Shown in pieces: positions 57,201 through 60,200 of a stretch of DNA of 64,000 nt. Position 1 is the first letter of the stretch. Each line of letters begins with the position of its first letter. Position numbers: made by a program. Source of the DNA: Escherichia coli (GTDB lineage: Bacteria; Pseudomonadota; Gammaproteobacteria; Enterobacterales; Enterobacteriaceae); the NCBI RefSeq assembly GCF_044324785.1, contig NZ_CP172128.1; one strand, written 5' to 3'.

Positions 57201-60200
57201 AATCCAGAATGTCATCCGGTGGCAGGTCTGCAGGATCCAACATAAGGCCTCCTTACGGGCAGCGGCGCCCGGAAAATATGTTTTCTGTTATTAAGCGAGG
57301 GAAATAATCAGTTCTTCTGCGGAGAGAATCTGGACATTTTCAGCACAGGCTTAACAGTGTAAAAATGATTACGCCTCCAAAAGCGAATAACAGGGGAATG
57401 TTTTTCTCCGGCTGTGTTGATCTCAGCGTTAATACCGGTGTGGCGAGAGCGTAAAAAATAATACCTGCGGTATAAATAAAATAAGGTGTGATGCCGGACA
57501 GATTACATACACTGGCGAATATCATAAGCATGACGGCAACTACCGATAAAATAATGGAAGTATTCTTCCATTCACCAGATGGTGTAAGTGAAATGATATC
57601 GCCATCCTGTTTATAGTTCGTGTTCAGCTTCAGGAAATGACGGATATCTTTCAGCGTGTTCAGTTTCTGCTGGATCTCTTCCACAAGTTCCTGTCTGTCG
57701 GTTTTTTCACGGAGCAGCTGGAATTTTGTCTCCCTCAGTACAGATATAATACGGTCCACCTGGCCGGGGGAGGGATAGTAATGATGTTCGAGCATCCACC
57801 GGATATCGGCGATTAACCGGTCAGTTACCGGTGTATTACCGTTGTTAATGAGAGGTGTTTCGTGCATCCACTGAAATATGCGGTAGATATGTCGCTTAAC
57901 AAAAATAAAATCATCGGTGGTTTTATTCTCCAGCATGAGATATATCCCGTCGAGTGTTAATAATAAAACGTCCCGGGTGTGAGGTGATTTGTGATGTATT
58001 GTACGGAATATCATTTCTGCACTGTAATCGTTTACGCAGGTGATATATCACACCAGAGTAAATACAGCGGAATGAAGCTGTAGAGTGACCAGAAAAGCCC
58101 GACGGGATCTTTTGCCCACAGGCATAAGAATGTCAGTCCGGTGCATCATGCGCCGGCAAGTGCCGCGCATAATTCAGCGCCTCCGGAATTGCCGCTCTTC
58201 ATCATATAACAGAGCGCGATCAGCAGTGGGATAATGAAGACGAGCGGCAGGACAAAGGATTCGGCTGCGGATATCCATTCCCGGTAACGCCAGCGGTCGT
58301 TTAATCTGTCGGCATCATATTTCAGACAGTTGCTCAGGAACGCCAGATCGTTCATGAGGGGGGCGTCCTGGCCATACTGCGCCGCGAGGCGCATTCTGGC
58401 ACCCCACAACCGGGCACTCAGGGCACGGAGTTGTGCCGGGGTGACCTGTTTTCCCCGACAAAGTTGTACCTGTAATTGTGTTGCCTCGTGGACAATATCT
58501 GTGTGGTTCACCCCATATTCTGCAGCGGCTGTTTCCAGGTCACGGATGATCAGGCTGAGCCAGGATATCAGTTCACTGATGTTCATTGTCGTTCATCCTT
58601 TTGTACGGACAGCCGCCTGTACTGGCGGCCGGTTTCATGGTCGCAGGGTTTTTCTGATGCCGGACTGCTCCAGTACCACACTGTCCGGTGTGATTTTCTC
58701 CACGAGATAAGGGGTTCCGGGGATGTTCTGGCCCGTCTTCACATCGGTGATGTGTCCACCCGAAAGTTCTATCCGGGCTCTCAGCTGAGGCTGTACACCA
58801 AATATTTCTGTCAGACGGGGGGATGTCGCCGTCGACGGGGCAGTCGGGATGGCGGACGTGCTTTCCTGCGGACGACCGGGCTCTGCGGGAATACCCTGCT
58901 CCAGCATGCGCAGTTCATGACGGATTTTCTCTCTCGCCAGCATGGCTTCATACAGGGCTGTTTCGTCCTGTATCCGCTCAATCTGCAGTTGCCGGGGACT
59001 CTGTTCCTCTGCGTTTCCGGTTGTGGCCATTGCCGTTGCCGGTAACAGCAGCGCTGAAACCAGAAGGGCTTTTGTTTTAGCGTGCATAATATTTACCTGT
59101 AAATTGATAGTGGAAACGACCGTTCTCCAGTTGTCGTGTGACAGAGATAAAACGGACAGAAGGCGCCTTCAGACGTTCAACCAGCTGGTATGCCGGGAGT
59201 AGCGTCTGTATCTGAAGGTCATACTCTTTCCACGGAGGCTGGATAATATTTCCGTTTTCATCGGTGACGCTGTTACTGACCTCCTGCCAGTCCAGCGTCA
59301 GTGGCATTGACTGAGCAAGCGTGGTCAGTTGTTCTTGCAGGACAGAGCTTTCCGGCAGAGCATCAACGTCGACGGGATGTTCAGGCAGGCGGAAGCTGAC
59401 TGGCAGGCCAATGCCGCCGGTCTTTCCTTCCGGCATCACAATAAAGGGGCGGGTGCCCGTCATATCACTGATGCGCCGGATGAAGTCAGTCACTGTCGCG
59501 CCAGCTGTATTAGTGTACGAGGCGCGAAGATTGCCGCTGCCGCCGTCAGTTGAACATTCAGCCAGCGAATAACGCCATCCGGCGGCAGACAATGGCAGTG
59601 ACGTCCATATGTCAGCACATCCCTGGATAAAGGCGTCGGTTTCGGGGAGTCCGGGCCAGGGGGGACTGATTCGTTCCTCTGTGGCCTGTCGGGCAGCTGC
59701 TGCCTGCGCGGCTTGTTCAGTCTTCCACCGTTCATAATACTGCCAGCCGTACCATGCAGCGCCGAGAAGGGCGATGATCAGCGAGACAGTGATGAACTGC
59801 GCTCCCCGGGATACCGGATTCAGGCGCGCGGCAGCCGGATGTTTACCAGAGCCGGTCAGGGTGGACAGCGGCAGGGCCTGATTCTGATCGCCTGCTGAAA
59901 ATGCCACCGGTTCATAGCGTGTCCAGCCCTGCTCCGGTTCGGTGTTGATGGAAAGAAAGGTATCCCGGGCTTCACGGACCTCTTCTCCGCTTCCCACCAG
60001 GTCACTGACGAGAACACCGTCGACAGCGGAAACAAAGCTGTAGCGCGGTGTTTCTCCGGGTAACGTCAGTTCCGTGATGGCATAGCCGCCATGTTCAAGC
60101 AGTGGCAGGATCAGCAGGGCGAGGGAGAAGCACTGACGGGGTTTTCCGGGCAGTATGCGGCGACTGACAGTGGCTACCATGGTGTGGGTATCGGCATCTT

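What the first reader, a model, noticed from the sequence alone, without database searches (positions are those of the whole stretch)
57340..58586. Two-gene insert between pilP and pilQ in an otherwise canonical thin-pilus operon
The pil genes run pilL, M, N, O, P, then two extra ORFs (146 aa and 224 aa), then pilQ, R, S, T, U, V. Both extra proteins have a soluble N-terminal domain and C-terminal transmembrane helices. The 224-aa gene is visibly AT-richer than its neighbours and is preceded by a perfect palindrome GTGATATATCAC, so it looks like independently regulated cargo. This domain layout is common in membrane-anchored abortive-infection or exclusion proteins, but that role is a guess.
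Basis: partly seen in the sequence, partly recalled or inferred. Interest (0 to 1): 0.6.

Follow-up and report, generated by a model that had tools for sequence, protein, structure and literature searches.

The report
Roving membrane-protein pair in conjugation operons
The two extra genes between pilP and pilQ are real, non-essential cargo: an uncharacterised pair of related inner-membrane proteins that turns up inside the transfer or pilus operons of several unrelated conjugation systems, and one of the two is cut short here by a single-base stop mutation.

Summary
The window carries the thin-pilus operon of an IncK2/Z plasmid and is 100% identical to pTB-nb2 over 57200-58700. Two extra same-strand genes lie between pilP and pilQ.

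Three details of the finding need correcting.
- The "146-aa ORF" is a 184-aa gene (A, 58032-58586). One G->A change (TGG->TGA, 58146-58148) cuts off two of its three membrane helices.
- The "224-aa ORF" (B) most likely starts at ATG 57936, giving 198 aa.
- The palindrome (58040-58051) lies in the ancestral coding tail of A, and 12-bp palindromes are no commoner than chance.

A and B are distant paralogues. Each is predicted as a four-helix bundle plus three membrane helices. Neither matches Pfam, NCBIfam, PADLOC, PDB, or R64 PilJ/PilK, F TraS/TrbA or R64 ExcA.

The pair is accessory. R64 and F have empty sites, as do 327 related plasmids. About 17 plasmids carry a RelE/ParE module there beside a remnant of A.

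Homologues lay inside a transfer or pilus operon in all 13 contexts that could be read, at six different junctions of four gene-cluster types. An antisense third gene (C), absent here, often accompanies them.

Function is unknown. My best guess, at about 0.3, is an exclusion or defence role tied to piliation.

The parts
58032..58586 (-). Gene A. The ancestral reading frame is 184 codons: an N-terminal four-helix bundle of about 105 aa plus three membrane helices. In this window it is interrupted at codon 147, so the expressed product is 146 aa (58149-58586) with one membrane helix.
   Evidence: ORF list. The 184-aa forms P0039 and P0040 are 98-99% identical. In-frame continuation is shown. AF2 model. 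RefSeq annotates 555 nt in pTMSA1088.
58146..58148 (-). Premature TGA stop (W147stop) made by one G->A change on the coding strand. It removes TM2-TM3 and the family's best-conserved motif, WAKDPVGLFWSLYSFIPLY.
   Evidence: Window 58146 is T against C in pTMSA1088. The exact 51-mer carrying the TGA occurs in 7 PLSDB plasmids, out of 131 that match the region. The 146-aa form was seen on 575 contigs; two 184-aa forms were seen on 484 and 249.
57340..57936 (-). Gene B, 198 aa, intact. It has an N-terminal four-helix bundle with the invariant loop WML-H--YP-P-QV, then three membrane helices. It is the constant member of the cassette and is 43% GC.
   Evidence: Alignment A3. AF2 pLDDT is 80-92 in the bundle. 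dN/dS is 0.23 against the ICE copy. GC. Start codon evidence.
57937..58014 (-). The 26-codon N-terminal extension of the mechanical 224-aa ORF. It is probably untranslated spacer.
   Evidence: ATG 58014 is ATA in pCP55-141k and CAA in p2013C-3033. No homologue has the extension.
58040..58051 (.). Palindrome GTGATATATCAC, lying in the last codons (C-D-I-S) of full-length gene A.
   Evidence: 19 such palindromes in the window against about 15.6 expected. Possible pairing with the B start region (z = -0.88). Outer pairs are not compensated in a diverged relative.
58587..58634 (-). pilP-to-A spacer. It holds a GC hairpin (GCCGCC-loop-GGCGGC, about 58611-58630) also present in the three empty-site plasmids and the RelE/ParE variant aligned, then AAAGGATGAACGACA, which supplies the Shine-Dalgarno sequence for A. 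This is the left junction of the cassette.
   Evidence: Alignment A5 and sequence.
57244..57339 (-). B-to-pilQ spacer and right junction of the cassette. Its last 45 nt or so are retained in the 'empty' pB7A-type site, and its last 30 nt or so in the RelE/ParE variant. It ends with the pilQ Shine-Dalgarno sequence (AAGGAGG).
   Evidence: Alignment A5.
58635..59087 (-). pilP, the upstream neighbour.
   Evidence: It is 60% identical to the ICE PilP.
55735..57243 (-). pilQ, the downstream neighbour (GspE/PulE-type ATPase).

Best explanation
Shown. The insert is a horizontally mobile accessory cassette, not part of the thin-pilus machine. It encodes two distantly paralogous proteins, A and B. Each is predicted to have a four-helix bundle of about 105 aa (cytoplasmic by inference, since there is no signal peptide) anchored by three membrane helices. 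The cassette sits in the same orientation as the pil genes. A consensus scan found no promoter-like site upstream of either gene and no terminator-like site in the spacers between the genes, so it is probably transcribed with the pil operon. Related cassettes have been inserted into, deleted from and replaced at junctions between conserved genes in four kinds of conjugation gene cluster:
- the IncK2/Z plasmid pil operon;
- a chromosomal ICE pil operon;
- F-type tra operons;
- I-type (Dot/Icm-like) tra clusters.
The copy in this window is a reduced version. Gene A carries a one-base nonsense mutation that removes its most conserved membrane segment. The antisense third gene C found in many other copies is absent. 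B is intact and under purifying selection.

Inferred, at about 0.3. A and B form a hetero-oligomer in the inner membrane. It is made only when the transfer or pilus genes are on. It performs a conditionally useful guarding function for piliated cells, such as blocking DNA or phage genomes that enter by way of conjugative pili, or excluding rival elements. It does not help build the pilus.
For: - Identity and distribution. The region is 100% identical to IncK2/Z plasmid pTB-nb2, where both genes are 'hypothetical protein'. 131 PLSDB plasmids match, 111 of them in full.
- Accessory status. R64 pilP|pilQ has a 10-bp gap and F traU|trbC an 8-bp gap. 327 related plasmids have an empty site. About 17 carry RelE/ParE plus a 72-aa remnant of A. 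One plasmid has an unannotated ~1.5-kb insertion after a shortened B gene (possibly an IS) and another a deletion joining A to traY.
- Junction anatomy. One empty type keeps the cassette's left flank and another keeps its right flank, which points to repeated loss.
- Paralogy and fold. hhalign A3 against A4 gives 86.8%, E = 4e-6. The two AF2 models have the same layout.
- Real gene. B has dN/dS 0.23, similar to PilP (0.28) and PilO (0.25).
- Link to conjugation. All 13 contexts that could be read lie inside transfer or pilus operons: pilP|pilQ (window), pilO|pilP in the ICE, traU|trbC, traF..|traH, traR-like|traT-like, and traK|LPD7. 157 of 157 plasmids with an A hit and 148 of 150 with a B hit are typed conjugative.
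- Foreign composition. B is 41-44% GC in every context, against 55-59% for the flanking transfer genes.
- Frequent decay, typical of conditionally useful conflict genes. The nonsense allele of A is seen on 575 contigs, and a 148-aa truncated B on more than 1000 contigs of E. coli IncF plasmids.
- No own signals. The consensus scan finds no promoter-like site upstream of A or B and no terminator-like site in the intergenic spacers.
Against: - Nothing shows function. There is no hit in PADLOC, Pfam, NCBIfam, PHROGs or PDB, and fold searches return only generic helical bundles.
- There is no homology to known exclusion proteins (F TraS, R64 ExcA).
- Co-transcription, membrane topology and A-B interaction are all inferred. 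The promoter and terminator scan is a crude consensus search.
- In other contexts B lies head-to-head with the antisense gene C. B may therefore have its own promoter that the scan misses.
- The truncated-A lineage is widespread. Gene A may therefore be dispensable, or this copy of the cassette may be inert.
- The strict residence in transfer operons fits a role in the mating process itself equally well.
Confidence: 0.5

Rival explanations
1. A and B are optional helpers of conjugation itself. As a membrane complex they might tune pilus or T4SS assembly, mating-pair formation, or the envelope stress of piliation, and so improve transfer efficiency under some conditions without being essential.
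For: Every readable context lies inside a transfer or pilus operon and is co-oriented with it. B is under purifying selection. F itself carries several non-essential small membrane proteins of unknown role in its tra operon, including the trbA/artA pair in a similar tail-to-tail arrangement.
Against: The same proteins occur with three mechanically unrelated machines (type IVb pilus, F-type T4SS, I-type T4SS), so a specific structural partner is hard to picture. They are absent from the archetypes R64 and F and from 327 close relatives. They are often truncated or replaced. The foreign GC content in every context suggests cargo rather than co-evolved machinery.
Confidence: 0.22
2. The cassette is the remnant of a three-gene toxin/immunity or addiction-type module. 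The antisense gene C (polytopic N-terminus plus a conserved C-terminal domain) would be the effector, and A and B would neutralise or regulate it. In this window the effector is gone, leaving orphan partners that are decaying.
For: The conserved antisense gene C lies between A and B in the ICE, the E. coli and Salmonella IncF plasmids, and I-type clusters. It also sits head-to-head with B in L026 and L027. C is missing from the window (95-bp gap), and A carries a nonsense mutation. The same site holds a RelE/ParE module in other plasmids.
Against: C matches no known toxin family. Klebsiella IncF plasmids keep intact, tightly spaced A and B without C. B is still under purifying selection in the C-less IncK lineage compared with the ICE copy. 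Nothing shows that any component is toxic.
Confidence: 0.13
3. In this particular plasmid the insert does nothing. It is a hitch-hiking, partly inactivated remnant carried along by a successful IncK2 backbone.
For: A nonsense mutation in A removes the best-conserved motif. The cassette can be lost or replaced without loss of the conjugative typing. A's dN/dS against the ICE copy is relaxed, at 0.62.
Against: B is intact and 96-100% identical across the IncK2/Z plasmids that carry it. Its dN/dS of 0.23 indicates constraint. The full-length A allele is common. UGA is the leakiest stop codon in E. coli (established knowledge), so some full-length A may still be made.
Confidence: 0.12

Closest known systems
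R64 thin-pilus proteins PilJ and PilK (IncI1 pil operon)
   Same: They are small membrane proteins encoded in an I-complex pil operon and are of similar size (150 and 196 aa). The window plasmid lacks pilJ and pilK at their usual place between pilI and pilL.
   Different: There is no detectable homology of A or B to either protein (hhalign probability 2% or less). The domain order is opposite: PilJ and PilK have membrane segments at the N-terminus. Only the absent third gene C shows a weak PilK-like stretch (39.6%, E = 3e-4 over 44 columns).
Entry-exclusion proteins of conjugative elements (F TraS, IncI1 ExcA)
   Same: They are small inner-membrane proteins encoded within transfer regions and are dispensable for transfer. 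An exclusion-type role is the leading guess for A and B.
   Different: No sequence similarity. Exclusion proteins are specific to one T4SS partner and sit next to it (traG-traS, traY-excA). A and B occur with three different machines at six different junctions, and the same plasmids already carry excA.
Cargo hotspots between conserved transfer genes, such as the variable regions of SXT/R391 ICEs that hold phage-defence systems (recalled from the literature, not tested here)
   Same: A discrete, gain-and-loss insert sits at an intergenic junction of a conserved transfer operon. Alternative occupants use the same site (RelE/ParE here).
   Different: The occupants here match no known defence family. 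Unlike typical hotspot cargo, this same cassette was found only inside transfer operons.
F plasmid trbA/artA and other non-essential tra-operon ORFs
   Same: Small membrane proteins of unknown function embedded in a transfer operon. trbA(+)/artA(-) lie tail to tail, like A(+)/C(-).
   Different: No homology of TrbA to A or of ArtA to C. They sit at a different position in the operon.

Membership tests
Relocated PilJ/PilK (R64 thin-pilus biogenesis proteins) | Sequence homology to R64 PilJ or PilK | tested here: not met
   hhalign of PilJ and PilK against family profiles A3 and A4 gives probability 0.2-2.0%.
Relocated PilJ/PilK (R64 thin-pilus biogenesis proteins) | Conserved presence in I-complex pil operons | tested here: not met
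   The pair is absent from R64 (10-bp pilP-pilQ gap) and from 327 related plasmids. It is present in only about 111-130 IncK2/Z records.
Relocated PilJ/PilK (R64 thin-pilus biogenesis proteins) | Required for thin-pilus formation or liquid mating | not testable with these tools
   This needs deletion mutants. Indirectly, plasmids with the cassette deleted, replaced or truncated are still typed conjugative.
Entry/surface exclusion proteins (F TraS, IncI1 ExcA) | Sequence homology to a known exclusion protein | tested here: not met
   hhalign of F TraS and R64 ExcA against A3 and A4 gives probability below 1%.
Entry/surface exclusion proteins (F TraS, IncI1 ExcA) | Inner-membrane location | tested here: inconclusive
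   Three predicted membrane helices in full-length A and in B. This is prediction only.
Entry/surface exclusion proteins (F TraS, IncI1 ExcA) | Reduces DNA entry from donors carrying the cognate T4SS | not testable with these tools
   An exclusion-index assay is required.
Known anti-phage defence / abortive infection systems | Match to a defence-system protein model | tested here: not met
   PADLOC-DB gives no family for A, B or C at E <= 1. PHROGs gives only chance-level hits.
Known anti-phage defence / abortive infection systems | Protects against phage | not testable with these tools
   Phage challenge is required.
Type II toxin-antitoxin module | Homology to toxin or antitoxin families, with small soluble proteins | tested here: not met
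   No Pfam or NCBIfam hit. Both proteins are membrane-anchored. The RelE/ParE pair is an alternative occupant of the site, not a relative.
Transposon, IS element or integron cassette | Transposase or integrase gene, terminal inverted repeats, target duplication or attC | tested here: not met
   No such gene lies in the insert. No terminal repeats flank it. The junctions show only a 6-7-nt microhomology, GA(A/C)nACA.
Unnamed A/B(/C) transfer-operon cassette, defined here | N-terminal four-helix bundle plus three C-terminal membrane helices. Motifs: G-x-x-x-P-x-Q and WAKDPVGLFWSLYS in A; WML-H--YP-P-QV in B. | tested here: met
   Alignments A3 and A4 and AF2 models. The window's A lacks the C-terminal motif only because of the stop codon.
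Unnamed A/B(/C) transfer-operon cassette, defined here | Located inside a conjugative transfer or pilus operon, co-oriented with it | tested here: met
   The window and 12 further readable contexts.

The most novel reading that the evidence does not exclude
A, B and C form a previously unrecognised portable module that can plug into the operon of any conjugative pilus or T4SS, whether type IVb pilus, F-type or I-type. Because it is made only in piliated cells, it would protect them from the main cost of piliation, such as entry of pilus-dependent phages or of rival plasmids through the mating apparatus. It would act through a new kind of inner-membrane heteromer with cytoplasmic four-helix bundles.
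Probability: 0.2. Interest if true: 0.8.

Novelty: new variant of a known kind. Interest (0 to 1): 0.48.

Why it matters
IncK2, IncF and I-type plasmids are major carriers of antibiotic resistance genes in E. coli, Klebsiella and Salmonella. One uncharacterised membrane-protein cassette has been captured repeatedly by mechanically unrelated transfer operons and then often lost or broken. That history suggests a conditionally useful function tied to being a piliated donor. The cassette matches no curated family in Pfam, NCBIfam, PADLOC or PDB, and no paper in the held library mentions it.

If the function is protection against pilus-dependent phages or rival plasmids, it would bear on phage-based strategies against resistance plasmids and on plasmid competition. 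If not, the cassette is still a clean, small target: two or three genes with natural knock-out alleles already in circulation. It could assign a function to 'hypothetical' genes present on at least a couple of thousand sequenced contigs.

Tried and rejected
- Profile searches of A, B and C against Pfam, NCBIfam, PADLOC and PHROGs found nothing significant.
- PDB sequence searches with single sequences and profiles found nothing.
- Homology to R64 PilJ, PilK and ExcA and to F TraS, TrbA and ArtA was rejected.
- A transposon or IS origin was rejected, because no terminal repeats flank the insert.
- The palindrome as an operator was rejected: it is coding sequence and occurs at chance frequency.
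- An RNA stem pairing the palindrome region with the B start codon appears in both the MFE and centroid folds. However, z = -0.88, and a diverged relative breaks the outer pairs without compensation, so I treat it as weak.
- The similarity between PilK and gene C (39.6%) could not be strengthened. PilK homologues in PLSDB are nearly all at least 80% identical, so no diverse profile could be built.
- Literature searches found no paper on these genes. I searched for genes between traU and trbC, for IncK pil operons, for plasmid-encoded resistance to pilus phages, and for the protein accessions.
- The first word-indexed homologue search, with the single B sequence, found only close relatives. Profiles built from the IncF homologues were needed to go further.
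Full report
**1. What is in the window**

The last 14 kb of the window carry, on the minus strand:
- pilL (62485-63555), pilM, pilN, pilO and pilP (58635-59087);
- two extra ORFs;
- pilQ (55735-57243), pilR, pilS, pilT, pilU and pilV, followed by a shufflon and rci.

Positions 57200-58700 are 100% identical to the IncK2/Z conjugative plasmid pTB-nb2 from chicken E. coli, where both extra genes are annotated 'hypothetical protein'. The DNA matches 131 PLSDB plasmids, 111 of them over the full length, and 96 of 5426 complete E. 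coli genomes.

**2. Corrections to the observation**

*Gene A.* The 146-aa ORF is a truncated allele. Protein clusters of 184 aa that are 98-99% identical continue as ...ALAGA-W-CTGLTFLYLWAKDPVGLFWSLYSFIPLYLLWCDISPA. In the window the Trp codon is TGA (58146-58148), and the frame stays open to TAA at 58032-58034. Against the IncK2 plasmid pTMSA1088, four bases differ over these 1501 bases. One of them is 58146, T in the window and C in pTMSA1088, which is TGG->TGA on the coding strand. RefSeq annotates 555 nt there. The lost part is TM2-TM3, which holds the most conserved motif of the family. The exact 51-mer carrying the TGA occurs in 7 PLSDB plasmids. In the large protein collection, the 146-aa form was seen on 575 contigs, and two 184-aa forms on 484 and 249.

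*The palindrome.* GTGATATATCAC is at 58040-58051, inside the ancestral coding tail of A (codons C-D-I-S). The window has 19 perfect 12-bp palindromes against about 15.6 expected.

*Gene B.* The 224-aa ORF most likely starts at ATG 57936, giving 198 aa. ATG 58014 is ATA or CAA in close relatives. Every homologue aligns from Met27.

*Composition and helices.* The AT-richness is real: B is 43% GC, against 57% for pilP and pilQ. Hydropathy gives one membrane segment in the truncated A and three each in full-length A and in B.

**3. The proteins**

Neither protein matches Pfam, NCBIfam, PADLOC or PHROGs at a meaningful level. PDB profile searches found nothing.

AlphaFold2 models built from family alignments give the same layout for both. 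An N-terminal four-helix bundle has pLDDT of about 80-92, and three membrane helices follow at lower confidence. Fold searches return only uncharacterised Enterobacterales proteins and generic helical bundles.

A profile-profile comparison shows that A and B are distant, collinear paralogues (86.8%, E = 4e-6 over 145 columns). There is no N-terminal signal peptide, so I infer that the bundles are cytoplasmic.

B is under purifying selection (dN/dS 0.23 against a 76%-identical copy). This is comparable with PilP (0.28), PilO (0.25) and PilQ (0.15). A is more relaxed in that comparison (0.62), but it scores 0.18 between two IncF copies.

**4. The pair is cargo, not pilus machinery**

Evidence that the site is optional:
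- R64 has 10 bp between pilP and pilQ.
- A probe made of the pilQ 5' end joined to the pilP 3' end finds 461 plasmids. In 327 of them the two halves lie within about 84-102 bp, meaning the site is empty.
- About 17 plasmids carry a RelE/ParE module on the opposite strand, plus a frameshifted 72-aa remnant of A.
- Other records show an unannotated ~1.5-kb insertion after a shortened B gene (possibly an IS), or a deletion fusing A to traY.

Alignment of the junctions shows a hairpin after the pilP stop codon that is also present in the three empty-site plasmids and the RelE/ParE variant. It also shows that the different 'empty' types keep different flanks of the cassette:
- The pSTEC636 type keeps the left flank, including the Shine-Dalgarno region of A.
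- The pB7A type keeps the right flank, as does the RelE/ParE variant.
- A short microhomology, GA(A/C)nACA, is present at both junctions.

This pattern is most simply read as repeated deletion or replacement of a cassette that was present in an ancestor of this plasmid group. No transposon-like terminal repeats flank the insert.

Neither protein is related to R64 PilJ or PilK, to F TraS or TrbA, or to R64 ExcA.

**5. The key finding: the cassette follows conjugation operons**

Remote homologues of both proteins (31-44% identity) lie side by side between traU and trbC in IncF plasmids of E. coli, Klebsiella and Salmonella. The F plasmid itself has only 8 bp there. Profile searches and look-ups of the encoding contigs extended the list of locations:

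| Gene cluster | Junction |
|---|---|
| E. coli chromosomal ICE pil operon (TraI_2 relaxase) | pilO / pilP (PilP 60% identical) |
| F-type tra operons | traU / trbC |
| I-type (Dot/Icm-like) cluster | after traF, before traH (DotD); A confirmed at 99.2% |
| I-type clusters, including an Erwinia amylovora plasmid | between a traR-like DUF6750 gene and a traT-like gene (B-like protein, 98.4%) |
| I-type clusters | traK (IcmT-like) / large LPD7 protein |

All 13 contexts that could be read lie inside a transfer or pilus operon and are co-oriented with it. One further contig was too short to judge. All 157 plasmids with an A hit and 148 of 150 with a B hit are typed conjugative. B keeps 41-44% GC everywhere, although its neighbours are 55-59%.

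**6. A third gene**

In the ICE, in the E. coli and Salmonella IncF plasmids, and in one I-type cluster, A and B are separated by an AT-rich spacer of about 715-860 bp. This spacer encodes a conserved antisense protein, C. C is about 225 aa, with several N-terminal membrane helices and a C-terminal domain ending ...RKTPL-E---LN-RYGGKTRYR--S--KH-NGF-V-R-G. In two other I-type clusters, C lies head-to-head with B, without A (C confirmed at 99.6% in L026).

C matches nothing in Pfam, NCBIfam, PADLOC or PDB. It has a weak, unconfirmed resemblance to R64 PilK (39.6%, 44 columns). C is absent from the window, where the spacer is 95 bp, and from Klebsiella IncF plasmids, where it is 4 bp. B is therefore the constant member of the cassette, and A and C are variable partners.

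**7. Regulation**

A consensus scan finds no minus-strand promoter-like site upstream of A or B and no terminator-like site in the spacers between the genes. The only minus-strand promoter-like match lies in the 3' end of B, ahead of pilQ, and the terminator-like matches fall inside coding sequence. A has a usable Shine-Dalgarno sequence (AAGGA) supplied by the conserved pilP-distal spacer. Co-transcription with the pil operon is therefore the simplest reading, but it is inferred.

The RNA fold of 57915-58065 pairs the end of full-length A, including the palindrome, with the B initiation region. This appears in both the MFE and the centroid structures. If real, it would couple B translation to complete translation of A and would make the nonsense allele polar on B. 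However, the z-score is only -0.88, and a diverged relative breaks the outer pairs without compensation. I treat this as a weak lead.

**8. Interpretation**

*Shown.* The insert is a discrete accessory cassette of two paralogous predicted membrane proteins. It is gained, lost and replaced at junctions between conserved genes. It is restricted, as far as sampled, to conjugative transfer and pilus operons of four cluster types. It is partly decayed in this window.

*Inferred.* The machines it accompanies are mechanically unrelated. The cassette is dispensable, compositionally foreign and frequently broken. A role as a structural part of any one machine is therefore unlikely. A conditionally useful function tied to the piliated state fits better.

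I favour a guarding or exclusion role at the inner membrane, against pilus-dependent phages or incoming rival DNA, at about 0.3. The alternatives are:
- an optional helper of mating or of envelope homeostasis (about 0.2);
- a decayed three-gene toxin/immunity-type module (about 0.13);
- an inert passenger in this plasmid (about 0.12).

No tool result discriminates among these functions.

**9. Comparison with what is known, and novelty**

The phenomenon of cargo at hotspots within transfer operons is known. Examples are the variable regions of SXT/R391 elements (from my own knowledge of the literature) and the non-essential trb/art genes of F.

The proteins themselves belong to no described family. 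Every source calls them hypothetical, and full-text searches, including by accession, found no paper on them. I therefore rate the finding as a new variant of a known kind.

Interest is moderate. The cross-system recurrence is surprising and readily testable, but there is no functional evidence, and the window's own copy is damaged.

Noticed in passing
L005 9222-9752 (minus strand); L009 about 9286-9964; L007 8439-9298; L017 6259-6948; L026 5268-5951: A conserved antisense gene 'C' accompanies the cassette in many other contexts but is absent from the window. It is about 225 aa, with N-terminal membrane helices and a C-terminal domain carrying the motif RYGGKTRYR..S..KH.NGF.V.R.G. It matches no known family.
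   Followed up: partly
L008 20693-21283 (R64 pilK) compared with alignment A6: R64 PilK has the same overall layout as C and a weakly similar stretch, SHL...RKT.L.E (hhalign 39.6%, E = 3e-4 over 44 columns). If real, it would link the cassette's third gene to a named thin-pilus gene.
   Followed up: partly
window 63556-64000, and L001 15357-16620: The IncK2/Z pil operon has no pilJ or pilK between pilI and pilL. Instead it has an opposite-strand 132-aa protein with three predicted membrane helices. R64 PilK is reported to be needed for thin-pilus formation (recalled from the literature), so its absence here is unexplained.
   Followed up: partly
window 58611-58630: A GC-rich hairpin (GCCGCC-loop-GGCGGC) follows the pilP stop codon directly. 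It is also present in the three empty-site plasmids and the RelE/ParE variant I aligned. No T-run follows it, so it is not a classical terminator.
   Followed up: no
window 57930-58060 (minus strand): The predicted RNA stem pairs the last codons of full-length gene A, including the palindrome, with the start codon region of B. This would make the nonsense allele of A polar on B. The fold z-score is only -0.88 and there is no compensatory change in a diverged relative.
   Followed up: yes
L002 3235-3757: In about 17 IncK2/Z-typed plasmids a RelE/ParE toxin-antitoxin pair on the opposite strand replaces B and most of A at the same pilP-pilQ site. The junction is therefore a reusable cargo slot.
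   Followed up: yes
L005 10572-11736: In E. coli IncF plasmid pLAO6 the traU-trbC gap holds further cargo after the cassette: a 154-aa protein with a Walker-A motif (GEEGTGKST) and a 172-aa protein. Both are unannotated.
   Followed up: no
L013 2548-4371: In an I-type plasmid contig the same traF-traH gap that holds A, C and B also carries a D12-class adenine methyltransferase and several small DUF genes. This suggests another cargo hotspot.
   Followed up: no
L001 16701-19042 (pTB-nb2, just beyond the window's end): A flotillin-family protein and an OB-fold (NfeD-like) protein are encoded immediately next to pilI, beyond the start of the pil operon.
   Followed up: no
window 50000-51640: The shufflon region between pilV and rci holds several short ORFs on both strands that share the peptide motif (H/I)(E/P)DWHG. 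This fits invertible PilV C-terminal segments.
   Followed up: no
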